Assembly (NCBI GenBank): GCA_051294375.1
Contig: CM119269.1
Location: 894,272 to 958,271 of the forward strand
Length of the DNA stretch: 64,000 nucleotides
From: Paraspadella gotoi
Lineage: Eukaryota; Animalia; Chaetognatha
Direction of reading: 5' to 3'
Part shown: positions 11,701-59,121 of the stretch, one piece after another
Layout of the letters: each line of letters starts with the position of its first letter
Numbering within the stretch: the first letter of the stretch is position 1
Notes under the pieces: generated by a model
Seen by the model: the letters and a program-made list of their open reading frames with translations, nothing else
Databases searched by the model: none
What the model was told of the DNA's origin: nothing
Position numbers and translations under genes: made by a program

Positions 11701-12970
11701 GATTCCTCTGGGCGAAGCGTCCGCTGCTGCTCTGAGCGACGGAGCGGCGGGTACTGGGCAATGGGCAGTGACGTGGTGGGTCATGGGAAGTGAGTACTAG
11801 GTAGGTCGGGGTGCGAATACTGCGAATGGGTGAGCTGAGAAAAAGAGAGAGAGAGAGAGACGTTGAGCTGAGACAAGCGTCGTTTTGTGTCATAAAATGT
11901 TGAATGCATTATTTTTCTTATCAAACAAAACCTGGGTGGGGGAATGTAATAAATAACAGCGAGAGAAGAAAGAATGTAAATTATGGAGAGAAAATGACAA
12001 AAAGAAAAGATAAGACTTCGTGAGACGAACATTAATGAATGATAGACAAATCAGTAGAGTTGGATTTTTTGTATGGGATTTAAAAATCTAAAGACAAAGC
12101 GGAGAGAAAAAAAGTCACAAGCTTTCAAGTTCAGACGGACGAGGCTGGAGTTATTAAGGAGGGTCGAACCAAAAGACTCGAATGATGGATAAAAAAAGGA
12201 TTTCGTCTGAGTCTGACTGAGATAAGTTGAAGTCAGAGAGAGAGAGAGAGAGAATTGAATTGAATTGAGAGAGAGAGAGAGAGAGTACGGGAAGAATGAA
12301 GCACAAGAAAAGTAGGAGACTTTTAAGGTTTTTATTTATATCATAATCTTCGGTAAACATATGTAAAAAAAAACCAAACAAGAAACAAACAAAATTAAGC
12401 AGATTGACAAACTGACACACGGACAGACGCATAGACTACGTGAAGAAGCTTTCTCAATTTAAAAATGTGCGACTAAAAATTCGAGTCGCAGACAAATGGG
12501 ATGAGGAGCCGGCGATGAATCCCCAGGTGAGTGAGATCCGGGGATCGCAGTGGAAATCTGTGAAAAACGAGCTTTTTCACGAAAGGTCTCTCTTTCACAT
12601 TTTTTAAATCTCCTGAGGGTGAATTCTCAGATGCGTGGATTTTTCGGCGGGTGATTTCACAATGGAAATGGAAATTCACATTTCCTCTTTCCGAAGAGAC
12701 GAGTAGATGGTTTTGTCCGTCAATGTGTGAAAATTTGAGTTTTACGGAATCAGTGTAATATGAACAAATCGCTTGAGGATTGTTTCCGGATGAATGATTA
12801 ATGGAGAAATTCATTTTATTCTTGCTATTGTTTTCATTACAAACGAAACATGCGTAGGCGGAGAGAGAAAGAGAGAGAGAGAGAGAGATCAAAAGTTAAT
12901 GGAATTTGGTGAATTCAGTTTTTGTCACCCTCGGAGCAAAGAGAGAGATTCTTTTAGAGAGAGAGAGAGA

Positions 12971-13194
12971 GCCGGGTTGCCTGTGATGCCCAATGGGATG
13001 GGGCATCTCACTTTTGGCTTTGAGGGCGTCCGACCCTCAGTGACGCCTCCAGTCACCGGCCCGGTTACCATCGCAGAGGGAAGTCGTTAGGACTGTGGAT
13101 GGAACTCAACGCCTGGGATGGTGTGTTCCCCCTCTGAGCCAATGGATTTGGCTGAACAATGTTGGACGTGAGGCGGTGTGAATATACCGACACA
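12971..13194 (-). mobile_element. Solo LTR-like copy of the repeat forming the 54.6-55.8 kb array
   Basis: Reverse complement matches the array unit (TGTGTCGGTATATTCACACCGCCTCACGTCCAAC...CAGGCAACCCGGC) and starts at the same TGTG boundary; the last ~10 nt are replaced by (GA)n. Confidence 0.8.
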
Positions 13195-14389: not shown

Positions 14390-23583
<9,194 letters not shown>

Positions 23584-32647: not shown

Positions 32648-35600
32648 TTACTTTAATGACATGCTCCACGAGCGAAGACTTCGGTCAGGTAGTCCAATTG
32701 TGTTTGCCAAATAAGGACTCGGAGGTGGAACAGCTAAGGATTTGACGTTGGACGCTTTGGGTGATTGATTCAGATAGCCGAGTGGAGTGTGGATGTTGGT
32801 TAAACCCTGCATTGGCGCTTTTAATTGAGTAGTGTGGACGATATTTCCGCTTGTATGAGACATTGATTGTCTCGATAATGAGTGACTTTCAGTAGCGTTG
32901 TGTGCTGCTTTAGGCTTAGAGGGTGGAGCTGAGTTCGGGGCCTTGGAGTGAAATGGGGTGGGGACACGACCTTTGGGGACATCCGCTTCAGTATGCGTTA
33001 GTCGGATAGATTTTGACGAATGGCCAGATGGTGAATAAAATTCTGGGAGAGAACTGTTGGAGGAAGTAACGTTATTCGTTGTAGTGATCGTTACTGTTGA
33101 GGATGTATGGGTGGACTTGTGTCTGGAACGATGATCTCTAACAGGCTTGGTCGAAATGTGAGATGATAAAGGTACTCCTACTTGCTTATGAGCTCTCGCA
33201 ACCATCGCTTGATGCTTGGCCTTGTTCAGTTCTGTTAACTGCCGACTCTGTTCTACTTGTTGCTTCAACAGAGCTCTTTCCAGCTTGATAAGCATGCTTT
33301 TGGGAACTTGTTCGTTTTGACTCTTTAGTTTCGCGCTTGAATTCTCAGAAATGGCGTTTGGGAGACTCTCTCTTCTCTTCATGTGGTTCTGATCGGTTAA
33401 TGAAATGTCTTTTACCGCGACTTCTTGAAGACAGTCTTCCGATTCTTTCAATGCTAAATAAGTCAGAATGTTGCTTTCATTTACAAATTGTGCTTTAGAT
33501 CTTTTACCACGCGGTCCAACATAATAAGTATTTTGTATATGATCAGGAATAAAAACTACAGAAGAAAAGGCTGAATCTAGACTTTTCCTGCTATTGTTCT
33601 TGAGCAGATTGGTTGACAAATCCTTGACAAAATTTTGATTCTGTTCCAATTTTTCCCCCAAAACGCTTCTTTCGCTGCATTCCTCCCTCTTGAGAGATCT
33701 GATCCCCAGAAAGGAGTCTTCACCGCGATAATCGTTCGGATCAAGTCCCGCTTCTCCCGTGGAGCACGGGCGCGACGCGGTCGGCGTTGGCAGAAATCCC
33801 TCCTTGCCGCTTACTCTAGAAATACTTTTACCATCGGACGTTTTGAAAAGACCAGCTGCCCAGCTCTGCGCTCTACGCCAACTGTCCATGCTTACACCGG
33901 ACAACTGCTGATTTGTCATTGAAATTCCGTCACTGATCGGACGGTGGGAGGCCAACGACGTTGTAACGAACGACTGGGGAGAATCTTCTCCCTCGGGTGG
34001 CTCCCGCTCAAACGGAATCCCATTCTTGTCCACAACCGATTCAGCATTGGAATAGGTTAATTTATTGTTAATGTTTGGATAGTTAAGAAATTGGTTTTGA
34101 TGAACGGGTTTTGTTGGCTCTGTCATAGACTTAGGGGTCGCACTACACGTTGCTTGATGCCCAGACTCTGGGTTCTCACAGCCAATCGGACTGACTCGTT
34201 GATTTGAGGCAGGCAGAGAAAAGGACCCGACGTCATCCTTTAGTTTTCTTGCTGGCGAAATAGACTGGGAATGCACCCCTTTCTTTTTCGGCCTTTCCTT
34301 ACTTTTGTGAGTGGTTGAAATCTCCGTGTTGCTTTCTTCAATACTTGTTCCAGATTCAGGACGAGAATATAACATAGTTGTGGGAGAGGTATAAACGGAA
34401 AGAGATGTTTTTGGCTTTGTATACAATTGTGGCGGTGATGATACATTTACTGCAGTTTCGTTTAAGGTTTGAATGTCACAAACAGAAGTTGTATTGCAAG
34501 AGTTTTCCATCTTGGTTGTTGATTTGTTTTCCGAGGAGCTAAGACTGTCTGAGGAAGAAGTTCCTTTTGAGGTGGAATTGGTCGTACCAGAGGTTGTAGG
34601 GTTTGAACTCTGGGATGCTTGACTCTGAGAAACGGCAGTATTGCCACTAGCTCCCCCTAAGAAGATACTAGCACTTTTATTTAATCTAGTATATGTGGTC
34701 AAAAGATCTTCTAGGTCACTCTCAGAGGCATTACTCAGAAAGATTTCAAATTGGTCATGAGGAATTTGGGATTTATTGCTCTGGACTCTTTTGTCAAGCA
34801 GAAGCTTCTTGTCCAACAAATCTGTTTCCCTGTTGTACAGATTAACAAAATCTCCGAGTTGTTTGGCTAAAATTCTTTTTCTATCAGTTAAAGGTAATTT
34901 GCGGCTAGGTATTACCACCCTAAAACCATTACCCTGATATGAAGAGTTTGTTTGTGAGTTGTTAGACGAAGAAGAATAAGGAGTAGAATTTATGGATGTT
35001 GAATTGGAAACGTGAAGGTTGCTTGCAGCACGTTTTAAAAATCTTAAAACTAGATCCATTTGTTCATTTGCAGTCAAATCCTCAGGCTCAGCAACTTCAC
35101 TCTTATCAGTAGTGGGCATCCTCTCCTGCAATAACCTTTGCTGGACCCTCTGCAAATACATAGAAAAAGCCTGCCGAGCTTGGATCTTATTTAGTGTCAT
35201 TCCGCTTTCTAACATGGATATGAGTTGTTCACATTTTAACAGTGGAGGGCTGTCTACAGTAACTCCTTGTACTGTACCAGTTGCTTGTAATCCTTTAGAA
35301 CCATTCAAAACTTTGTGTCTCGGTCTCTCACTGCTTGGTTTATCTGGACGGTACACGGGGCCACTGTAGGCAAAAATGTTAGCATCAAAAGAATCATGTT
35401 GCTCTAACCGACCACTTTGTTGCAATAGGTGCCGTGCACTTGGACAATTAACAGGTTTTGGCTCAATGACATGGCCCCCGTTGAAAGAGTTTTGTCGTTG
35501 AGCCAAAGAAGCTGATCGAAAGTGTAGCTGCTCAGAGGATGTGCCTCTGCATAAACTTCTGTCTGTTGTAATTGAAACTGATGATGACGAAGGCATTATC

Positions 35601-38406
35601 ATAGAGATAAAAGGTGCATTTCCTGTTGGAAGTGCTCTTTGACACACCACAGAGGTTGTCTGCTGCTGATAAGAGTCCTGAAGATTCGCATCTTTCATCA
35701 TGACATCTAAATCGTTTTTGCCGATGTTGTTGACTTGTCTACCTTCCTTTATACCTTCTTGCACATTATTGTATTTGTTATTGTAACAGGGAGATGGTTT
35801 TTTAGACTTCTCAGTCTCAGTACCTGGTTGCATCTGATCTGTGCAACAAGTGGTTTCACCTCCATTTTCTGATTTTTCTTCTTTCTGGTTGTTCGATTCT
35901 CCATTTCCGCTTTCTCTGCCATAAGAATCAACATCCAGAGTTTTCACGTTGGCTCCTTGCTGCATGTTCAGATGTGACTGGACACCGGGAGTAATGTCGT
36001 TGTTACTCAAAGGGCTGCCACTCGCAGAGGCGTTCTTGGCGTTTGAAGAGAGTTTGCGTTCATAAATCGCGGACCTTTCTAAGGCCGCCACAACACCATC
36101 ATCCAATCTCTCCGGAAGGTCTTCATTTTCGAGAATTGCCTTGACTTTGTACGCGCACAATGCATTAACGGATATGGTTTTTCGCACCACAATCTTGTGT
36201 CTTTCTGGATACAGCTTCTCGTGAAGGTGCAGATTGGTCGACGTTCGATAGTCCAAGAAATGAGAGTACAACTCCCAAGAGTCGGGTGATGGAAAAACTC
36301 GCACCCATCCTCCGCATCTAATATGCTCCTCCTTGATTCGACGGACAAGCTTAGCTTCTTCGTAACTTTGCAGAGCGGCGGATTGAAGACCGTGAGAAAC
36401 TTGAATGCCGCTGTTGCTGCGACCCACGCTCCCCATGCCGCCGTGGCCGACTCCGGAGCCGGCCGAAAGCGGCCTGGACCCCCTCGTCGACCCCGTCCCC
36501 GAGCCCGGCCGGCTCTTCTTCGCCCGCGAGGCGGCCTTGGCCGCGACGTCGTAGTTTCGCCGGTTCTGCTGCATCCTCCGTTGCATCGGATCCTGGGCCT
36601 GGAACCCGCAGAGATTCAACAAATCGCAGATCATGTGACTCTTCACCTTGTTATCGAGAGGAGCATCGCAAGCGAGGGAGGGAGAGAGGTTGACCTCCAA
36701 AAGCCAGGGTTTAAAAGTTTCGTCGATCAGAATGTCGAACCCATATATCTCAAAACAGTTGCCCGCGTGGGGAACGAACATTTTGCTCGCCGTGGCGATC
36801 GGCATCTCCGCCGCGACGATCGTTTTTATGATAATGTCTTCGATCTTCATCATCAACGTGGTGGTGTCGTAGCCTTGGGTGCGAAGGAAGCGGAGCAGGG
36901 CGCTCATGGTCCACTTGTTGCCGTAGTCCTCCACGTCGGGGTTGTTGCTCTTGACGTAGTCCATGCTCCGCTTGTTGATGCTGTAGTTGGTAAGGTGCAT
37001 GCAGTTGACGCGAATGTTCTTAATGTTCTTGTCGTACTTGACGGTTGCGAAACGCGCTAGGCCTTCTTCGTAAATGTAGACGACGAGCGGATCGTAGGAG
37101 GTGACCGCCACGTAGATTCGCAGGTCGAATTTGAACCCGTCGACGAGAAGTGGGTTGGAGACGTATCTGGAGGAAGCGTCGAGGAATTTTTAAAAACAAT
37201 TTACCTCAATTAATGAATTTAATTCTATAAGTAAAACAAAAATACTTTTAAAAAAATAAATAGGTAGATATCGTCACGATATAAAAAAAACAAACAACAA
37301 CATAACCAAAACAACAACGAAAGAAATCATGAGCACCTGGAGACAAGCAGCGGCTCGTCCAAAGGAATGTGTTCAGGATGAGTGACGAGGAAGATGCCCC
37401 TTCCACGCGATGACGCAATCGGCTTAACGATCCAAACACCTGACCAAGAGTTAGACATGAAGATTTGAGAAAGCAAAATCATCCAAACTCCTTTTCAGAA
37501 GATGCAACGCGGCAAATTTCATTTTAGAATTTTTTTTAATTCTAATCGCTGGCGAAAAATAACCTTTATTTTTGAGATAGGCAGAGCAAAAATCTTGAAA
37601 TTCGGACGGGAGAACGAAACTTTGTGGAATGAAATCGAAATGCTTGAACCCTTTGTTCTGTTGCATCCGCTGGATGTTCTGCGAAGGAACGGGAGAGCGT
37701 TTTCAAAACTTTTTCACTTTTTTAAGACCCGTTTTGAAATCCTTACCTGAACAAGGTGATCTTTGCGGGTGATTTCGTATGATCTAGGAAAATGGTTGAC
37801 CTTCTGAAAGTCCTGCAAGCCTCTGAGAGTGTAGGGTTTCAAGTGGCAACCTGAAGAGAAAAATGAAAATCTTTTACTCGGGAACTGATAGTACAAGAAA
37901 TATTAGAAAACTTAATTACGGAAATCCAACACAGTTGACGCATAAAATTCAGGGATCGATACAAAAAGCCTTCAAGCCCCTCCGTGCTCACCTGTCCACA
38001 AAAGATTGAAGTCGTTGCTGTTGGGATGCACCTCCTTGAAGCCGTGCGCGTGAAGGATCGTCCGCAAGAGGCGACATTCGGTGCGCACGAACTTGTAAGT
38101 GAGATGGAACTTCTCACCGACAGCCTTGGCCGTCAGGTTGGGCGGTGGCGCCCCTGGTCCGGAAGTCGCGGGCGACGGGCTCGTCGACGTTGACGCCGAC
38201 GTCAGCGTCGAGAGGCCGCTGTCTTTGTTGCGATCGGCTAGGTGCTCAACCTTTGAAGGGGGGGGAAAAGGTTTTTTTTTGGGGGGGGGTTTCTTTTCTT
38301 TTTTTTTGATATTTATTTGTTTTTTAATTGTTTTTTTTATTTTATTCATTGATTAAATAATTTATTTATTTATTTATTTATTAATTGATTGATTGATTGA
38401 TTTGTT

Positions 38407-42075: not shown

Positions 42076-45000
42076 TCACGTGATCCCCAACGTCTCTCGA
42101 TTCATGTCGCAATTCGTCGCCGTCATCATTTTGCTGTATCGAAATGGAGTCCAGGTCTTCTTGGCTCCGGACGAGACGGGCCCGCGCCCAGCGACCCCCG
42201 ACCCTCCGACGAGGAAAGGCCCGATCCCGAGTCTCGATCTCCAATCGCTCGTCCGCGAAAACCGCTCCTCATCTTCTTCCGCCTTCAGGATGCAGGAGCG
42301 AACGTAGTCGGCGGCGGATTTGCATGCGCAGGAGTCGAAGGCCCTTGGTTCCGCGGGACGGCGCGGGCGGCGTCTTTCTCGTCCGACGCCGGCGCCTATC
42401 CGCTTGGCGTCGTCGGTGACGCACCGACAGGCGTCTCTCACGCAGCGACGCTGAAAGGGAACCGGATCGACCAGTCGACGACAAGTTCTGAGATCGGGGT
42501 GTTTGAAAAATCCGCAGCGACGCTGCGAGCGGACGACGTCGATTACGGCGGCGCCGCGACACGGAGAGCCCCAGGGGACGCCGACGCCATCGACGACTCC
42601 GCCGCAGCCTCGTCGGTGTCGCCGCTTACCGACGCGCCATGCGGCGGTGAAGGAGGCGGCGTCGGCGTAGAGTCCACCGTCGGCGTCGCGTAAGTCGTCG
42701 GCGGCGACCCCGTTGAAGTCGCCGCAGAGTCCGCAGAGTCGCCCGGAGGAGCCGCGCGGCGGGAGAATCTCCACGCGGCCGTCGGAAAGGCGCCACGTGA
42801 CTTTGAAACCGGAAACGGTGCGGACGACGATGGCGCCGTCTTCGGAGAGGACGGAGAGCACGTTGACTTTGAAGAAGGGAAGGGTGATCTGGATGGATGG
42901 AAGATATTTTGATTTATTTATAAATATAGATTTAATCTCATTATTGTTTTTTTTTCATATTTCGATAAAACGATTGATTGATTGCTTGGATAAACGCTCA
43001 CCTTCTTCCTCCTAACCCTGACCACGCCCCCTTCATGGACGCTGACGCGGAACTTTCCGATCTTAACGGCGACGTTGTCCGTCCACCCGAAGTGGTTCGT
43101 CGATTTGGAGGTCGTCGTCATTTTGATCGAGAACCGGGTCGACTTTCGTCGTCCACCCTTGGAAGGGGCGTCGCAGTTTCTCGTCAAGATGTAGGTGCAG
43201 CCGGCGCTCTGGACATCGGTAGAGCGGAGGAAGATGGAAATAGGAAATTGTCTGTCTGTCTTTCTTTCTTTCTTTCTTTATTTCTTTCTTTCTTTCTTTT
43301 TTCTTTGTAATCTTCTTCCACCTGAAAGTTGAACATTTTTCCATCGAAGGTCTCAATCCGCGGATTCCGACCGATCCGGCAGACGGCCTCCTTGAAGACG
43401 CACTTGGGGCAGCACTCGCCGGGGACGCGAGTTCGAACTTCGCCAGGGAAACATCGGGAGACGCTGGAGCAGTCGGTGGAGTGACACCGGATCATCGGCG
43501 TGGGCGAGATGAGACCTGATAGAGCGGAGAATCGGGAATCGGAGTGGAGTTTTGTGAGAAGAAGAATAGATTAAACCGAATCACATCATAAAAGTAACTC
43601 AAAGAATGCTTGAACTGATAAATATACACTCTCCTCTCTCTTCCGAACCTTGAACAAATACAATTATAAAAACCAAAAAAAATTAAAAGTGATTAAAATA
43701 AATGAGATCGTGATTCTACAATCAATCTCATCTCTAAACAATACATACTCAATACTACCTCTAACATCAAATATTCTCCTCTCGTCTCCTCTCTCTCTCT
43801 CTCTCTCTCTTCCTCTCTCTCCTCTCCTCTTCAACTGATAATAAGTATTTCACATTAGAAAAAGTTATAAACAATTGCAGGATTACGATAAAAAATCCTA
43901 ATTTTCTTATATTGAAATGATGTGAGGTTTTGAAATGCTCACTCTTGACGCATGTGCAGTTGGTGCAAAGGCTGGCGCGCCATTTCTCCCCCACTCCGCG
44001 TTCTTTTTGTGAGTCGACGACGCAGACTTCCATTGACGCCGGTCGCTGTTTGACGGCGCACTTGGGGCAGCAATCGGCGCCGCCGTCCGACGACACCGCG
44101 ATTTCCCCGACGCCGCAAACGAGCGTCCGACAAGCGGCGCGACGGCACACGACGGTTCCGCCAACGCAGGCGCACTTGGTGCAGGCGTTGAGGCGCCAGG
44201 CGGCGCCTGATTTGAAAATATGCTTCCGGAAGAGGCAGCGGCCGGGCAAGGCGAAAGCGGAGCGGCTGCCGCGACAGGAGGAGCAGCAGGAGCCGGCGGA
44301 GCGGTGGAAGAAAGATCGTGGACAGTTAAGGACGGGACACTGGAGGCGAGAACAGGAGAGGGAGCCGGAGGTGCAACTGGGGAAGCAAAATGGTTGGATA
44401 CGGTCGAGTAGATGTGCCGCATTTAGAGTTGTTATATATAGCGAACCTACCGGCAAATGAAGCAAGGATCCTCCCTCCAAGTCAGTTCTTCTTTATCCTT
44501 CAAAATCCGGCCATTGATAAAGCAAAATCGACAGACTGGGCAGCACCTAAAAGCGAGAATTGAAATATACAATTATACATAGTAATAAATTCGTTTTATA
44601 ATTTTGAGTTTTCACGATTCTCTTCGCTTCGAACTTTCTGAAGTCTTACTCTCGATCCAAGCCTCACTCTTCAACAGCAGCAGCAGCAGTAGCAGCAAAA
44701 AAAACAACAACTACGAGAAATAAAAAAGCCGCGCATTGACCTGCCCGGTATATGGACGGGATCGTCGCACGGCGCCACGCATCGCTCCCTGGTTCGCGTC
44801 AAAATCCCCGATTGGCAAAAGTTGATTTGGCAGAGATCCAGGTCGTCGCGCCATCTGTGCCCGCTGGGGTAGTTGATGCCCCGGCTGGAGCAGCCTGGCC
44901 GGTCGTATAAAAAAATATATATTTTATACTCGTAGATTTTTTTTTGGTTAACAAAAACGATGATGTTTTTATGAAGCAAAAAAAAAATTAGTCTAATACG

Positions 45001-45736
45001 GCACAAACTCAAATCAAGGAAAGTTCCCAAAGGAGGAAAAAAGTGCGGAATGGATATCAATGTATACGTAACTTAAAAATGTTCACAGTGGAAATTCTCA
45101 CCGGCGCATTTTCGATCGCAACACGAATTCTTGTCCGAGTTTTCGACGACGGCGTGACATCCGTCGAAACTCGTCCCGAAGCAGTCCTCCCTCTCGCATC
45201 TGCGAAGGAATCGTTTCGGTGGCGAAATTTGAAAAGAGAGAAAAAAAAAATGGAGAAAAGAGCAAAGCTATTCGCTTTGGTGACTGCACCTGATGAACCC
45301 TTGGCTGCATCTGCATCGGATGCAGGGATCGACGGAGATGAGAGGAACGTAAACTTCGAGTCCTTCGGCCGCCTCGGAGCAGGACGCCTCGGTGCCCTGG
45401 GAGAATTATATAATATATTATATAATATATATATAATATATATATATAATATAATTATATATACGCCTCGGTGCCCTGGGAGAATTATATAAGTATATTC
45501 AGAAAATTATTAACTCTTGAGAATAGTAATATCTCTTCTTTTAGTATAGTATAGTATTATAATCATACTATATACCTCTCTCTCTCTTCTCCAGGATCTC
45601 TTCTCTCTCTCATGTCTCGCGTCTCCTCTCTTCTCTAAATAGTTACGTCCAAAAACTGTCCGTTCGCTCGTTTGACGGCAGCCAAGAGGACGACGCCGAC
45701 AACGACGATGAGACGATCTCTGAAGCCAGTCTCCAT
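42076..45736 (-). CDS. bmper: BMPER / crossveinless-2 (signal peptide, 5 VWC, VWD, C8). Exons 45647-45736, 45290-45396, 45102-45199, 44741-44894, 44451-44546, 43943-44376, 43322-43515, 43002-43208, 42076-42888
   Basis: Signal METGFRDRLIVVVGVVLLAAVKRANG; VPLISVDPCIRCRC matches the first VWC; tandem CxxCxC...CCPxC repeats; TFDGKMFNFQ and GRLCGLCGDFNG (VWD); CVRDACRC...CAC...DYVRSC (C8). All junctions are in phase. Confidence 0.92.
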
Positions 45737-53523: not shown

Positions 53524-56500
53524 TTAAAATTTCATCTTCAAGCTTCCACAACCAGAAGAGTAGGAAAGAAGAGCGAGGCTCGACATTCCGCGATCATAGG
53601 CCTCGTCGCGCCACCTCCCGCATTGACATTCCGCACCGGCTATTTCAAGGATTCCTTCTGATTTTTGCGCGATCCAGACTGTTGAGTAATTCTGAACAAA
53701 GGTCACTCTTGCCGAGAGGGAAAAGGGAATGAGAAAATTTAGTATAAATTTCTTGAATTTTTTTGGGGCCTTTTTGTTGTTTTGTTCTAATTTAAATAAT
53801 TAATGATATTAATCGCCCATGATATTGGCTACAACGTCAACCAGAGCTACATCCGTGATGCCGGGGCTTGGGCATCTTACCGGCAGCTGTTTTCGGCTTT
53901 TGACGCAGTGACCAATGAACATTTACTAACCCCATGTCAGTGGCGTGTTTAAATCGGAACCAACACACTTTACTTAGTGAGACATTTAGGGTATTATAAC
54001 AGAAGCGTCTGTTGAGTGTTTAGGATATCGCTATTATCGCTAGTTCGCCACACAACGCACTTAAGCGATTTTTGTCTTTTGTCCGTATTTTTTGCCATAC
54101 ATGGGGCTAAAAATATGTTAAAGATAATCGCTTTCCCTTTAAATAAACTCAAAATTTGACTGGTAACGAGACTTGCCTGACTGAATTTTTGCACAGATTC
54201 TCAACTTTTCCGAAGGCGCCTTCCAAGCTAAGTTTCCCAAGGACGAGCTGTTTTATTCTGTCGCATGGTTAGCTGTTATATATAATATATATTATGAATA
54301 TTATACCACTTCCTTGACAAGGTACTCTGGGGAGTGAATAAACGAGAATGTGAGAGAGGTCTTGATTGAAAGCTTGCAGGGACCTGCTTATGTCATTATC
54401 TTGTAAAGAGTGATGGGAGGCCTTAACCACTAAAGCCTGTCCAAAGTCAGGGGCAAGATAGCTTAATCTATTAAATGTATTGATAAATTTTTTATATTGG
54501 TTGTACCAATTTCATAAAATTCAAGCTCCTTGTATTTTTTGATGCTAGTTGCGGAAGTACAATAAGTATTCCCCAATCATAATACTTAAGGGAGTGGTCC
54601 TTTTCATACAATTGAAAACATACCTTTGAAATATTAAATACATGTGCCGGTATAATTCACACCGCCTCACGTCCACCCATCCGTCAGCCAAATCCATTGG
54701 CTCAGAGGGGGAAGCACACCATCCCAGGCGTAGTGTTCAATCCACAGTCCTAAAGACTTCCCTCTGCGTTGCAAAAGCGAGACGGTCCTAGGGTAAACCG
54801 CGCCAGTGACTGAGGGCGTCACTTGAGGGTCGGAAGCCGCCCAAGCCAACAGTGAGATTGCCCATCCAATGGGCAATCAAGGCAACCCGGCTGTTGCCAT
54901 AAGTGGTGAGCCCTACTATCGAACAGCACCTTCTCAGGGTACGCTACGACAAACGCCTATGCCCGCGCTCGGGGTACGCTACGCAACCTACCTGGTACTA
55001 CGACAAAAAAACGCCTATGCCCCACAACTCGCGCTCTCCTTCTCTTCTCCCACTTATTGGTAACAGTCTTGTCAGACACCTCTCAGGCTTGAGGAACCTG
55101 AGTGATGTCTTGGCCCGGGAATCCTGTGGCGTATATCACACCGCCTCACGTCCACCATCGTTCAGCCAATCCATGGCTCAGAGGGGGGAACACACCATCC
55201 CAGCGTATGTTTCACTTCCACAGTCCTAACGACTTCCCTCTGCGTTGGCAAAGCGAGACCGTCCAGGCGTAACCGCGCCAGTGACTGGAGGCGTCACTGA
55301 GGGTCGGAAGCCCCCAAAGCCAACAGTGAGTGCCCCATCCCATGGGCATCACAGGCCCAACTCCGGCTGTTGCCATAAGTGGTGAGCCCTACTATCGAAC
55401 ACTGCAACTTCTCAGGGTACGCTATGACATAACGCTATGCCCCTGGGGTAACGCTAACGACAAAAAAACGCCTATGCCCCCACAACTCGCGCTCTCTCTT
55501 CTCTCTCCACTATGGTAACAGTCTTGTCAGACACCTCTCAGGCTTGAGGAACCTGAGTGAATGTCTTGCCCGGGGATCCTGGTGGCGTATATTCACACCG
55601 CCTCACGTCCACCATCCGTCAGCCAAATCCATTGGCTCAGAGGGAACACACCATCCCAGGCGTAGTGTTTCATCCACAGTCCCTAAACGACTTCCCTCTG
55701 CGTTGGCGAAAGCGAGGACCGTCCTTATGGGTTACCGCGCCAGTGACTGGAGGCGTCACTGAGGGTCGGAAGCCCGCCAAAGCCAACAGTGGGAGATGCC
55801 CCATCCATGGGATCACAGGCAACCCGGCTGTTGCCATAAACCAACTTTCATTGATAAGGGAAACCAGGTAACTCTGGGAGTGAATAAAACGAGACTGTGA
55901 GAGAGTCTTGATTGAAAAGCTTGCACGGACCTGCTAATGTCATATACTTGTAAGAAGGCGCTTAAAACCACCTAAGGCCTGTACCAAAGTTAGGGGCAAA
56001 ATAGCTTATTTATTAAAATGAAGGATCATTTTATATTGGTTTGTACCAATTTCCATAGAGGAAATGAATTTCAACAAATGCTTTGGCAAATCCCACCACT
56101 TACATAGATTTTTTAAAAATTATAATACAAGAGCGTTAAAAAGCCGAATCTAATAATATATTAGTAATATATCAGTAGTAGTAGAGTATAGTATAGTAGT
56201 ATATCAGTTATATGATCCCCTATTTCTAGTTTATTATTTATCTCCAATTCTAAAAAAAAATAAATAACTATTCTACAACCTATATTTCTTGTTCCATCGA
56301 AACAATCGCCGACTCGAATTTTGTCTGAGTCCAAAAATTCTCCGTAGGAATTGGCTAAAATAAAAGAAAGAGATTGAATATTGATTTGTTTACCTATTCA
56401 CTTATCACCCTTTGATTATTATTTATTGTATTCTCCTTTAGCTATGATTAGTTGATATCATCTTATGAGAGTTGTTTGGTATCATGCAGGCTAACGTTTC

Positions 56501-57119
56501 GCTCCCTGACAAAAGTAACAAAATTGAATTTGGTCGGCTCACTCTATATGCGATCACTTATATAGGGGGAGGAAAGATGAGCTTGCAACGAGCAAAGCTC
56601 CAACTCATGTAGCCAAAAAAGGTGATCAAACCGACCCTGGATCGGGTCAGCCCTTACCCTTTGCTGACTTACCGTCGGGGTCGTCGAGGTCCTGACCCGC
56701 CTTCCTGGCCTGAATGAAGAATCCCATTAGGTCGACGCCACACTCGGTCGATTTAATTTGAATCTTGATTTCGGCCCCAGGTTCGATAGTTTTGTTGCTT
56801 GGGAGCACAACCACGAAAGGCAGCGGCGCCTGGCAGAACGAAAAGTTGGGTATTTTGGATTTCTATTAATTTTTAGATTACTTAACTATTGAATTCGATA
56901 ATTTTTTTTTTTAAAAGGAAAACGAGATTTTATAAAATTGAATTAAGGATAATTTGGTTGCCAAACGGTTACCGTTGAGCCGATGACATTTCGGTGCCCG
57001 GGTTTCATATCATGGCACAAAGCGGACATATCTCTGACGTTTTCCTTTTTTAGGCGATTGGAGTAGCTCGACGCCGACGCAAAGAAAGCCGCCACGCAGA
57101 GCGCAACGAAGCAACTCAT
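53524..57119 (-). CDS. Secreted Reeler-domain defence protein. Exons 56973-57119, 56673-56829, 56280-56354, 54177-54272, 53524-53707; exon 4 disrupted in this sequence
   Basis: Signal MSCFVALCVAAFFASASS followed by Reeler motifs CHDMKPGH, MGFFIQAR, GEF, C...N, WKAP and VTFVQNYSTVW in the expected order. Exon 4 has a TAA, a net 1-nt deficit and a GC donor. Confidence 0.8.
53857..53983 (-). mobile_element. Diverged partial copy of the SINE-like element at 13956-14140
   Basis: Shared blocks GATGCC..GGGG..GGCATC, ACCCCAT.TCA.TGGCGTGTTTA and CACACTTTA. Confidence 0.5.
54304..54516 (+). repeat. Dispersed repeat B, long copy left of the LTR array
   Basis: Aligns along its length with 55839-56057. 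Confidence 0.85.
54643..55838 (+). mobile_element. Tandem miniature LTR element (TRIM-like): LTR 54643-54901, internal, LTR 55125-55377, internal, LTR 55580-55838
   Basis: Three ~255-bp direct repeats separated by two ~200-220-bp non-coding spacers. Repeats have imperfect inverted termini TGTGGC...GCCATA, and each spacer starts AG-TGGTGAGCCC (PBS-like). Solo copies occur elsewhere in the window. Confidence 0.75.
55839..56057 (+). repeat. Dispersed repeat B abutting the right end of the LTR array
   Basis: Same sequence and right end as the other B copies. Confidence 0.85.
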
Positions 57120-57167
57120 GCTCGATGTTTTTTTTTATTAAGATCTAAAAGTTGAAAATTTGGAATC

Positions 57168-57413
57168 TATGGCAACAGCCGGGAGGCCTGTGATGCCCAA
57201 TGGGATGGGGCACCTCACTGTTGGCTTTGGGGGCTTCCGACCCTCAGTGACGCCTCCAGTCACTGGCGCGGTTACCCTTGGACGGTCTCGCTTTGCCAAC
57301 GCAGAGGGAAGTCGTTAGGACTGTGGAAGTGAACACAACGCTTGGGATGGTGTGTTCTCCCTCTGAGACAATGTGATTGGCTGAACAATGGTGGAGGTGG
57401 GGCGGTGTGAATA
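57168..57413 (-). mobile_element. Solo LTR-like copy just upstream of the Reeler start codon
   Basis: Reverse complement of the array unit, ending exactly at ...CCCGGCTGTTGCCATA; the first few LTR bases are missing. Confidence 0.8.
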
Positions 57414-58486
57414 ATATTCTAATAATATATATTATTATAATATAACTGAATATACCACCACAAACCAACGATTTTGTATATTTGTATATTTGTGTTGGTA
57501 TATTTATCAATATATCAATTTAAAAAAACATTGTTAAAAACGAGATGGTAAATAGAGTTCAAGCCTTGAGAAAGTCCGCAAAGCATACAGAGTTAGGAAT
57601 TAAAACTTATAATATTATTTAAATGGCTAGAGAATTTTAAATATTTTCTCAAAATTTTCATTAAAGAGCTTAAATCAAAGCCTCGTGTTTATTTTATCAT
57701 TGCTCCAAATATCATTAACTTATACTAGAAAATGAATTCACAGTGAGCCAGAAGTCGTAAAGTGTCAGTATCACTCTTGACATAGATTTTGAATTAATTA
57801 AGTACGTAAGGAAGTTGTTATAATTATGTTCAAACTATTACCCAAATATGTTTAATCTTTGCTTTCCTTCCTTTAGTTCCCTTAGTGTTACAGGCGGGTT
57901 AAGCGCCCCGTCCCTCTTAACTGCCAGACGATCACAGGGCAAGAACTCCGGACCTTTGGGTTGGGAGGCGAATGACTTGCCTCCGGCACTAATGGCCGCT
58001 GAGGAACGGTTGGTGGATTTTAGTCCACCATACCTATTATTCAGTTAAATTTAGATTAATTAATCTTCTACTATCAATATTCGAAGTTTTACATATGAAA
58101 AATAAATGTTTTTCAAAATCAATATGAATCTTCAAATGGATTTTAGGAATGTTTATGAAAATATTTGATCTTTAAATCTGAAAAGGACTCCGTTTTATTT
58201 CGAGACACTCCCTGAGAGAAACCTGAATCTGAGAGGAATCTGAGAGGAATCTGAATTTCAGGTTTTTGCGTCGAAAACAATTTTGATTTGAGGGATCTCT
58301 AGCTCTGTTTTTTTTCTACTTTAATATAGTATAGCAATTTAATATATAGTTACATTTTAGTAGCGTCAATACTCTATTAGTTTATGATAGCTTGTTGCTT
58401 TTATTTTTAATTATTTGTTTCACTCATTTTCCTCCGAAGACGGGTGACATCTTACGGATGTTCATTTGTTGTTTGTTGAAAAGATA

Positions 58487-59057
58487 CATGGTGACAATTT
58501 TACAAGCGCCGGTAGAAATACGCTGTCATTTGCAAACCAGTGGTTATTTCATTTATTTTATAAATTAGTGGAATAGAAAATACTAAAACCATTTATGTGT
58601 TAAAATTTTATATTGATCAGTTAAGATATGGCTTGACAATGAGCGGAGAAAGTTGGCTTTTCAAATGGGGTTTCATTTTCCAACTCACTGTTTTTAAATT
58701 CAATATTTTTTTTAACTTTTAAAACTTTTTAAACAAAGTAATTATTAAAATATTAACAATATTTATATCCTCAGAAAGCCCCTAAAAATATGAAGAATGT
58801 TATAATTACGAAAGCTTTAACATAAAACGTAAGCTGCCCAGCCTTGGTACAATTAAGAATATCAAAAATTAAAGACGATTTTCATATCCATCTTCCTGCT
58901 ATCATTGCTGAGGCATATCAAAGTCGATTCTTATAAAATTTGTATATATAAAATAGTTTGGGTTTTACTTTTAAATTCATATTTAACATTGCAAAAATCT
59001 TCATGGGTTTGCAAATGACAGCGTTTTTCTACCGGCGCTTGTATAATTGTCACCATG
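58487..59057. mobile_element. MITE, Tc1/mariner type
   Basis: About 52-bp near-perfect TIRs (CATGGTGACAATT.TACAAGCGCCGGTAGAAA.ACGCTGTCATTTGCAAACC), TA on both flanks, AT-rich non-coding interior. Confidence 0.9.
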
Positions 59058-59121
59058 TATGTGAGTGAAGAATTATACATAAGCTTTAAAGCAAAATTTC
59101 ATGGCTACCTTCTTTATGTTA

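What the first reader, a model, noticed from the sequence alone, without database searches (positions are those of the whole stretch)
54643..55838. Tandem-array miniature LTR retroelement (TRIM-like) with solo LTRs in an animal genome
Seen: an L-I-L-I-L layout (L ~255 bp, I ~200-220 bp) with no credible ORF. L has imperfect inverted ends TGTGGC...GCCATA, I begins 2 nt after L with TGGTGAGCCCTACTATCGAAC, and L alone recurs at 12971-13194 and 57168-57413, each respecting one of the same boundaries. Known: shared-LTR tandem arrays plus solo LTRs are hallmarks of plant TRIMs such as Cassandra, and few animal TRIMs are described. Inference: a non-autonomous LTR family, possibly new. Caveats: no canonical polypurine tract before L, no clean target-site duplication, and the LTR ends in TA rather than CA.
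Basis: partly seen in the sequence, partly recalled or inferred. Interest (0 to 1): 0.8.

Follow-up and report, generated by a model that had tools for sequence, protein, structure and literature searches.

The report
Twister-ribozyme mini-retrotransposon in tandem array
Three end repeats and two short spacers form a protein-free jumping element, abundant in an invertebrate genome, whose end repeat holds a tRNA-like promoter look-alike followed by a twister-type RNA fold predicted to cut itself, so it likely spreads through a roughly 470-base RNA circle, and this doubled copy would be the footprint of copying round that circle twice if the doubling is not an assembly error.

Summary
The L-I-L-I-L layout is in the assembly, and L behaves as an LTR. 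Contigs from at least two studies show fixed TGTGG/GCCATA ends and the I-to-L junction, with depth thousands of times that of unique flanks. My descriptor hit 2 of 5 copies, nothing else in the window, and 0 of 200,000 shuffles. Rfam scores stay far below threshold. P1 is replaced by a palindrome that pairs only between two copies. Predicted cuts give units of 476 and 462 nt. It works like a plant LTR retrozyme and resembles Helenus TRIMs, but I found neither described with a twister. The stretch is unpolished, so the triplication, target-site duplication and primer tRNA are unproven; cleavage and circles are untested. This scan already reported twister mini-LTR elements on other DNA of this genome, and those notes gave me the lead; this locus adds a three-LTR copy.

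The parts
54643..54901 (+). LTR copy L1
   Evidence: error-laden; holds the palindromic P1 zone intact at 54786-54793
54698..54750 (+). tRNA-like module of L1: A-box-like 11-mer (54698-54708) and T arm with a 7-nt B-box-like loop. Same module in L2 (55174-55226) and L3 (55633-55682)
   Evidence: descriptor met in 2 of 5 copies (L1, 12970-13194) and in 13 of 20,000 shuffles; promoter function untested
54768..54850 (+). type-P5-order twister fold of L1; predicted cut after U54794
   Evidence: fails the strict descriptor through indels and substitutions in an unpolished stretch
54902..55124 (+). internal region I1: 2-nt spacer, PBS-like site 54904-54924, short sub-repeats, 5-purine run ending 3 nt before L2
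   Evidence: I-to-L junction bridged by X1 record 55064-55264
55125..55377 (+). shared middle LTR L2
   Evidence: longer contigs stop matching at 55377-55378
55244..55324 (+). type-P5-order twister fold of L2 (P5, P2, T1, UAA, T2, P3, P4); predicted cut after U55270
   Evidence: descriptor hit 55253-55315; Rfam twister-P1 20.4 bits, E 0.67, on its 3' half; 6-bp P5 helix
55378..55579 (+). internal region I2; PBS-like site 55380-55400
   Evidence: junction to L3 bridged by X6 record 55510-55616
55580..55838 (+). LTR copy L3; twister fold 55702-55787, predicted cut near 55732
   Evidence: fails the strict descriptor; joint 55838->56896 marks the 3' end in other copies
57168..57416 (-). lone L copy, 5'-truncated; complete twister core at 57291-57229, but the P1 palindrome and the A box each carry one change
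   Evidence: X1 contig 56115-57230 matches with 0 substitutions and 2 gaps
12970..13194 (-). lone L copy, 3'-truncated, with a 21-nt deletion that removes the 5' half of the twister fold
54297..54642 (+). left part of a second high-copy repeat (X) that hosts the insertion
   Evidence: depth about 6e5 against 80 in X1; joints 54617->54297
55839..56053 (+). right part of repeat X, resuming directly after L3
   Evidence: aligns to the uninterrupted X copy from 54305; 1 of 5,000 shuffles scores as well

Best explanation
This is a protein-free LTR mini-element whose LTR carries a tRNA-like module and a permuted twister fold, and it likely moves as an LTR retrozyme: a predicted Pol III transcript would be cut in each LTR into a unit of about 470 nt that would be closed into a circle and copied by a helper retrotransposon's enzymes. 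Shown: the LTR ends, the I-L junction, high abundance, no coding capacity, the twister elements with their pairings (P2, P3, P4, P5, T1, T2, the UAA cut site and the conserved G-A after P2), and a palindrome in place of P1 in the read majority. Inferred step 1: transcription starts near the A box and reads through. Step 2: two LTR copies on one RNA pair through the palindrome to form an 8-nt P1 duplex and both cut. A single-unit circle has one palindrome and would stay closed; this idea came from earlier notes of the scan. Step 3: the unit has no terminal redundancy but keeps PBS, internal region and promoter, so ligation into a circle would allow tRNA-primed reverse transcription. Step 4: going round the circle twice gives L-I-L-I-L, integrated once into repeat X with a 4-5-nt duplication, probably by a Gypsy-type helper. 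For this locus I put rolling-circle origin at about 0.35-0.4, later unequal recombination or cDNA recombination at about 0.4, and an assembly misjoin at about 0.2.
For: A twister descriptor taken from the Rfam consensus printed and re-ordered to P5 order hits 2 sites on both strands of the window, both in L copies, and 0 of 200,000 dinucleotide shuffles of a 249-nt copy. T1 reads CGG:CCG where the Rfam consensus has CCC:GGG, so the pairing is kept with different letters. A 6-bp P5 helix, not part of the descriptor, closes the fold and is in the minimum-energy structure. The elements map onto the Schistosoma twister table (PMC8501958, passages). The read majority gives the palindrome: at 57279, 97-99% of summed depth in 4 of 4 runs; at 55265, 55266 and 55268, 93-98% in 2 of 2 runs from two studies. 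The 8-mer forms a -11.0 kcal/mol self-duplex and no hairpin. The tRNA-like module occurs in 13 of 20,000 shuffles. Fixed ends: records of 329-3976 nt stop matching at 57168-57170, longer records stop at 55377-55378, joints fall at 57168 and 55838, and loose ends before the 5' end are heterogeneous and AT-rich. The PBS matches the honeybee tRNA-Trp-CCA 3' end printed in Fig. S2 of PMC10886601 at 11 of the first 13 positions (by eye). Plant LTR retrozymes occur with 2, 3 or 4 ribozymes, and the authors derive multimers from a circular template (PMC4918200, passages).
Against: Rfam gives only 15-20 bits against a 67-bit threshold, and twister-P5 is never listed. The descriptor was written after I saw the sequence and allows one mismatch in P2 (a C-A pair); 3 of 5 copies fail it. 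In the free fold P2 and P4 are not the minimum-energy pairing (-22.0 for the imposed nested helices against -31.5 kcal/mol; pseudoknots not scored). The predicted circles are not unusually stable (z -1.78 and -1.15). The B box departs from the Helenus GGTTC, and the A box lacks YGG. The purine tract is only 5 nt. The TSD cannot be read cleanly, and the left flank alone does not beat shuffles (637 of 5,000). I1 has about 19 nt more than I2, which a single circular template would not give unless it is read error or later slippage. Ribozyme-free TRIMs also form such arrays.
Confidence: 0.6

Rival explanations
1. A Helenus-like TRIM that moves by the ordinary linear LTR cycle. The twister fold only trims the 5' end of the RNA or is a passenger, and the array arose after insertion by unequal recombination between LTRs or by cDNA recombination into an existing LTR.
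For: Tandem arrays are reported for LTR-11_DR (PMC10886601) and biv-TRIM, up to 58 repeats (PMC6934838), with no ribozyme invoked. Recombination routes are reviewed in PMC11899658 (passages). Twisters in Perere-3 act as 5'-end processors (PMC8501958). I1 and I2 differ in length. Circle folds are unremarkable.
Against: The same motif sits in every LTR, so a competent ribozyme would cut both ends and remove the terminal redundancy that the linear cycle needs (inference). The read majority keeps the palindrome in two studies.
Confidence: 0.27
2. The element is real but the third LTR is an assembly artefact: two noisy long reads, each with L-I-L, were merged on one LTR. This concerns the locus only and is compatible with either mechanism.
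For: The stretch carries about 5% or more indel error. No listed contig spans the array and none is shown across either outer junction (tables truncated). Repeat X on both sides invites misjoins.
Against: The three L copies differ from one another throughout (19 indel events per pair), so they are not copies of one polished consensus. The two flanks continue one interrupted X unit. I1 and I2 differ by a block of about 19 nt.
Confidence: 0.2
3. Not an LTR element: a tRNA-derived SINE or a non-LTR retrozyme or satellite whose tandem units only look like L and I.
For: L has a tRNA-like head, and tandem ribozyme repeats without LTR features are known in animals (PMC7761336, passages). The PPT is weak and no TSD is proven.
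Against: L has two fixed ends forming a 5-of-6 inverted repeat, the tRNA-like part starts about 50-55 nt inside L, the array begins and ends exactly at L boundaries, and a TGG-led PBS-like site follows L. Animal non-LTR retrozymes lack LTR, PBS and PPT.
Confidence: 0.04

Closest known systems
Plant LTR retrozymes (Cervera, Urbina and de la Pena 2016, PMC4918200; passages read)
   Same: Non-coding LTR element with a small ribozyme in each LTR, a PBS, solo, two-LTR and multi-LTR forms, and a predicted unit without terminal redundancy.
   Different: Animal host; twister rather than hammerhead; an internal tRNA-like module (retrozymes are said to lack promoters in PMC7761336); PBS not of the tRNA-Met type by eye; smaller unit (about 470 against 600-1000 nt); circles not shown here.
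Helenus / TRIMp3 (Kojima 2024, PMC10886601; main text parts 1-4 of 6, supplement parts 1 and 10 of 11 and motif searches)
   Same: Unit of about 735 bp, 250-260-nt LTR with a tRNA-like A and B box module, TGG-led PBS a few nt after the LTR, occasional TA end, tandem arrays and lone LTRs.
   Different: The paper mentions no ribozyme ('twister' 0 times, 'ribozyme' once, in a reference). The boxes here are more degenerate. Three window motifs (PBS, LTR-PBS junction, twister loop) had no match in its supplement. No alignment to its consensus sequences was run.
Type-P5 twister ribozyme (permutation described in PMC6765202, passage; structure in PMC6154101, passages)
   Same: UAA cut site, P2-P4, both pseudoknots, the conserved G-A after P2, and an open end at a 6-bp P5.
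   Different: P1 is an 8-nt self-complementary stretch that cannot hairpin; the first P2 pair is C-A; scores are far below the Rfam threshold.
Twister variants of Schistosoma Perere-3 (PMC8501958; passages) and RTE elements (PMC7761336; passage)
   Same: Twister motif used by an animal retroelement, with a weak or missing P1.
   Different: Those are autonomous non-LTR elements with one 5' ribozyme in P1 order; here one sits in every LTR of a non-coding element.
biv-TRIM (PMC6934838; passages)
   Same: Animal TRIM with solo repeats and TDR(x)-I(x-1) arrays.
   Different: It has a 7-bp PPT and no clear PBS; the passages read mention no promoter module or ribozyme.

Membership tests
TRIM | Two direct terminal repeats with fixed ends around a short internal region, under 1 kb | tested here: met
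   L-I-L about 735 bp; ends and I-L junction in contigs of at least two studies
TRIM | No coding capacity | tested here: met
TRIM | PBS complementary to a host tRNA | tested here: inconclusive
   TGG-led site 2 nt after L; 11 of 13 to honeybee tRNA-Trp in Fig. S2 of PMC10886601 (by eye); no host tRNA available (0 in window; no genome)
TRIM | Polypurine tract before the 3' LTR | tested here: inconclusive
   longest run 5 purines, ending 3 nt before L (55120 read as G); shorter than the 7-bp biv-TRIM tract but like the end of Helenus-9_PSt-I
TRIM | 4-6-nt target-site duplication | tested here: inconclusive
   junctions fit a duplicated ACCA or TACCA of repeat X only if homopolymer errors are allowed; no junction contig shown
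Helenus (TRIMp3) | tRNA-derived A box (TRGCY, YGG) and B box (GGTTC) in the LTR | tested here: inconclusive
   TRGCY met in 4 of 5 copies; YGG and the first G of GGTTC not met; T arm with 4 of 5 pairs in 3 of 5 copies; 13 of 20,000 shuffles
Helenus (TRIMp3) | 4-bp TSD in animals | tested here: inconclusive
   4 or 5 nt both fit
Helenus (TRIMp3) | Pol III transcription | not testable with these tools
   contigs only; absence of TTTT is uninformative (1,372 of 3,000 shuffles)
LTR retrozyme (plant) | Hammerhead ribozyme in each LTR | tested here: not met
   no hammerhead core printed by my simple descriptor anywhere in the window or by Rfam; a twister fold is there instead, so it works like a retrozyme but is not filed as a member
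LTR retrozyme (plant) | Self-cleavage and accumulation of circular RNA | not testable with these tools
   all runs offered are contigs
Twister ribozyme, type-P5 | Conserved core nucleotides with P2, P4, T1, T2 and a closing P5 | tested here: met
   2 of 5 copies by descriptor, 0 of 200,000 shuffles; P5 6 bp
Twister ribozyme, type-P5 | Intramolecular P1 helix | tested here: not met
   the 8-nt zone gives no hairpin, only a -11.0 kcal/mol duplex between two copies; P1 is reported dispensable or weakening
Twister ribozyme, type-P5 | Rfam gathering score | tested here: not met
   15.2-20.4 bits to twister-P1 against 67.2; twister-P5 not listed
Twister ribozyme, type-P5 | Cleavage at U-A | not testable with these tools
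   needs an assay

The most novel reading that the evidence does not exclude
An animal LTR retrozyme built on a dimer-dependent twister ribozyme behind a Pol III module. The palindromic P1 makes cutting depend on two LTRs, so the single-unit circle protects itself. This three-LTR locus is one integrated rolling-circle cDNA, the multimer the retrozyme model predicts.
Probability: 0.33. Interest if true: 0.8.

Novelty: new variant of a known kind. Interest (0 to 1): 0.62.

Why it matters
If the cycle holds, LTR retrozymes are not limited to plants or to hammerheads. It would give twister ribozymes a role inside LTR elements and link Helenus-type Pol III TRIMs to circular-RNA retroelements. The three-LTR copy makes an open question testable: whether shared-LTR arrays are born during reverse transcription or later by recombination, which PMC11899658 leaves undecided. 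A ribozyme-bearing family should show more young multi-unit insertions with identical units and one TSD than ribozyme-free TRIMs of the same genome. The class itself has been noted many times by this scan in the same genome, so this locus adds the multimer rather than the class.

Tried and rejected
No whole genome is held, so there are no genome-wide counts, TSD statistics, host tRNAs or helper search. ARAGORN found 0 tRNAs in the window. Rfam at gathering level gave 0 matches; E-value scans gave only weak twister-P1 hits and chance miRNA or snoRNA hits. A palindrome-plus-core pattern found 0 matches in metagenome and viral contigs. No RNA holder was listed; X7 is only guessed RNA and looks like the same data as X5, so I count them once. 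I first considered an LTR ending in CA followed by a 4-nt spacer; contig ends and joints at 57168 and 55838 include the TA, so I dropped it. A minus-strand LTR reading was dropped for the same reason and because no TGG-led site follows it. An A in the T stem shared by L1-L3 looked like a private marker of common origin, but position 54732 is not listed among majority differences, so it is not private. Absence of TTTT and circular-fold stability were not significant. The second read-laying was aimed at the empty-site joint and the TSD; neither appeared among the rows shown. Pairing of the PBS with the LTR's own A box is only 6 nt and I treat it as chance (by eye). Host placement failed: the window's TTLL5 is a long branch (0.84) in no supported group, in a tree of 49 rows using 48 of the 120 listed hits, chosen by me. 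Literature searches listed no paper on a twister inside an LTR; I saw listings, and passages only for the papers named. A look-up of earlier findings by sequence and nearby returned nothing. Dfam and Repbase are not available here.

Full report
Observation. The window holds L1 54643-54901, I1 54902-55124, L2 55125-55377, I2 55378-55579 and L3 55580-55838. The unit matches its neighbour at 85.5% over 756 columns. Each L ends in GCCATA, and a 21-nt TGG-led site follows L1 and L2 after 2 nt. Two further L copies lie on the minus strand: 57168-57416 lacks the 5' end, and 12970-13194 lacks the 3' end and 21 internal nt. The array codes for nothing recognisable: the longest ATG-led frame is 70 aa, and 0 of 24 ORFs tested hit Pfam.

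Sequence quality. Array LTR pairs differ by 19 indel events each, nearly all 1-2 nt, and by 5-15 substitutions; the two lone copies differ by 5 indels and 17 substitutions. Unique-flank contigs of runs X1 and X4 both show 13 gaps over 54000-54284, whereas an X1 contig covers 56115-57230 with 0 substitutions and 2 gaps. The array therefore sits in an unpolished stretch, and its units may in truth be nearly identical. Short-read contigs cannot span it and none is listed doing so (thousands of rows not shown). The triplication is plausible because the copies differ throughout and the flanks continue one interrupted repeat, but it is not proven.

L is an LTR of an abundant family. Nine runs of one organism from three studies hold part of the stretch; I laid five of them, two of which (X5, X7) look like one data set. 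Summed contig depth over L reaches 5e5-1e6 in X1 against about 80 on unique flanks. The tool warns this is no copy number, so I read it only as very high abundance. Records of 329-3976 nt stop matching at 57168-57170, longer records stop at 55377-55378, and joints fall at 57168 and 55838; many other listed pieces stop inside L, as expected of fragmented contigs. Loose ends before the 5' end are heterogeneous, AT-rich and run into TGTGG. The I-to-L junction is bridged in X1 (55064-55264) and X6 (55510-55616); no shown piece bridges L-to-I by 31 nt on both sides. The PBS-like site matches the honeybee tRNA-Trp 3' end printed in Fig. S2 of PMC10886601 at 11 of the first 13 positions, the best of the tRNAs listed there by eye. 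The purine run before L is only 5 nt. The flanks belong to a second repeat, X. The right flank resumes the uninterrupted X copy at 54305 (1 of 5,000 shuffles); the left flank alone is not significant (637 of 5,000), but four X4 rows join 54617 back to 54297. A duplicated ACCA or TACCA fits if homopolymer errors are allowed, so the TSD is inconclusive.

What L contains. Earlier notes on other DNA of this genome suggested looking for a tRNA-like module and a twister; I tested both. An A-box-like 11-mer starts about 50-55 nt into L, followed 35-38 nt later by a 7-nt loop on a 5-bp T-arm-like stem. The descriptor is met in 2 of 5 copies and in 13 of 20,000 shuffles. Rfam gave twister-P1 hits of 20.4 and 15.2 bits on the 3' half of the motif, far below threshold. 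Re-ordering that consensus into P5 order finds the missing half upstream. In L2 and in the copy at 57 kb: P2 3' strand GCGA, conserved GA, T1 CCG, an 8-nt P1 zone, UAA, P2 5' strand CCGC, T2 GC, a 7-bp P3, and P4 around GU-CGG-AAGC. These are the only 2 hits on both strands of 64 kb, and 0 of 200,000 shuffles hit. The descriptor was written after seeing the sequence, but a 6-bp P5 helix that it did not contain closes the fold, and T1 keeps its pairing with letters that differ from the Rfam consensus. L1 and L3 miss through indels and substitutions in the noisy stretch, and the 13-kb copy through its deletion. The P1 zone is a palindrome in L1 and in the read majority: 97-99% of depth at 57279 in 4 of 4 runs and 93-98% at 55265, 55266 and 55268 in 2 of 2 runs. 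It forms a -11.0 kcal/mol duplex with a second copy and no hairpin alone. Against: P2 and P4 are not in the minimum-energy fold, the first P2 pair is C-A, and predicted circles fold only slightly better than shuffles (z -1.78, -1.15).

Mechanism (inferred). A transcript begun at the tRNA-like module would be cut after U54794, U55270 and near U55732, releasing units of 476 and 462 nt. Each holds the LTR 3' part, PBS, internal region and the LTR 5' part with the promoter, and has no terminal redundancy. As in the plant retrozyme model (PMC4918200, passages; PMC7761336, passages), ligation to a circle would let a tRNA-primed helper reverse transcriptase make solo, single or multimeric cDNA for integration. 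The palindromic P1 would favour cutting where two LTRs share one RNA and spare the circle; earlier notes proposed this, and P1 is reported to be dispensable or only weakening in other twisters. L-I-L-I-L is the product expected from two rounds on the circle, but unequal recombination and cDNA recombination give the same layout (PMC11899658, PMC6934838; passages), and the extra 19 nt or so in I1 argues mildly against one template.

Comparison and novelty. Anatomy is closest to Helenus TRIMs (PMC10886601; text parts 1-4 of 6, supplement parts 1 and 10 of 11 and motif searches), whose text has no twister. Function is closest to plant hammerhead LTR retrozymes. Animal twisters are described in non-LTR elements. 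Six searches listed no twister inside an LTR; the library lacks most subscription papers, and Repbase and Dfam were not searchable. I do not file it as a retrozyme member (no hammerhead) nor firmly as Helenus (boxes degenerate, TSD open). The host is an animal, most likely an invertebrate, that a TTLL5 tree left unplaced. The scan has reported this class repeatedly in the same genome (33 and 36 fitting notes shown each); the shown notes describe elements of about 470-750 nt, two families in one stretch, or intronic inserts, and none of the text shown mentions a three-LTR copy. Verdict: real element, new variant of a known kind, interest 0.62.

Noticed in passing
window 54297-54642, 55839-56053, 19297-19456, 16802-16883: Second high-copy repeat X (depth about 6e5 against 80 in X1). 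All four copies share an end at ...TTTCATA; reads join 54617 back to 54297, suggesting a head-to-tail or long-short-long layout with short inverted ends. No PBS or ribozyme was recognised. Joints 54516->55587 and 54517->57168 show L next to this X end in other copies.
   Followed up: partly
window about 54225 and 56280-57136: An X5/X7 contig at repeat-level depth (218) joins 54225 to 56280, so X and the array may be nested inside a third, older repeat, or another allele lacks the 2-kb insert.
   Followed up: no
supplement of PMC10886601, Helenus-2_SyJa-LTR and Helenus-2_SyUm-LTR: By eye, both LTRs have a hammerhead-like core after the tRNA-like part (core motif recalled, not tested).
   Followed up: no
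window 32648-37189 (-), with an upstream exon near 37972-38352: TTLL5 tubulin polyglutamylase gene with one stop-free stretch of 1,513 codons; best hits about 60% identical over residues 1-330.
   Followed up: partly
window about 42076-45072 (-) and 18670-19080 (+): Exons that look like a cysteine-rich VWC/VWD protein (crossveinless-2-like) and a synaptotagmin-like C2 domain; names recalled from the translations, not tested.
   Followed up: no
window 58484-59060: Inverted repeat with 196-nt arms, 71% complementary, 185 nt apart; possibly an old MITE.
   Followed up: no
window 54000-56100 and 15747-15756: An unpolished, indel-rich stretch next to accurate sequence, and one 10-N gap; other findings in this assembly may be affected by the same noise.
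   Followed up: partly
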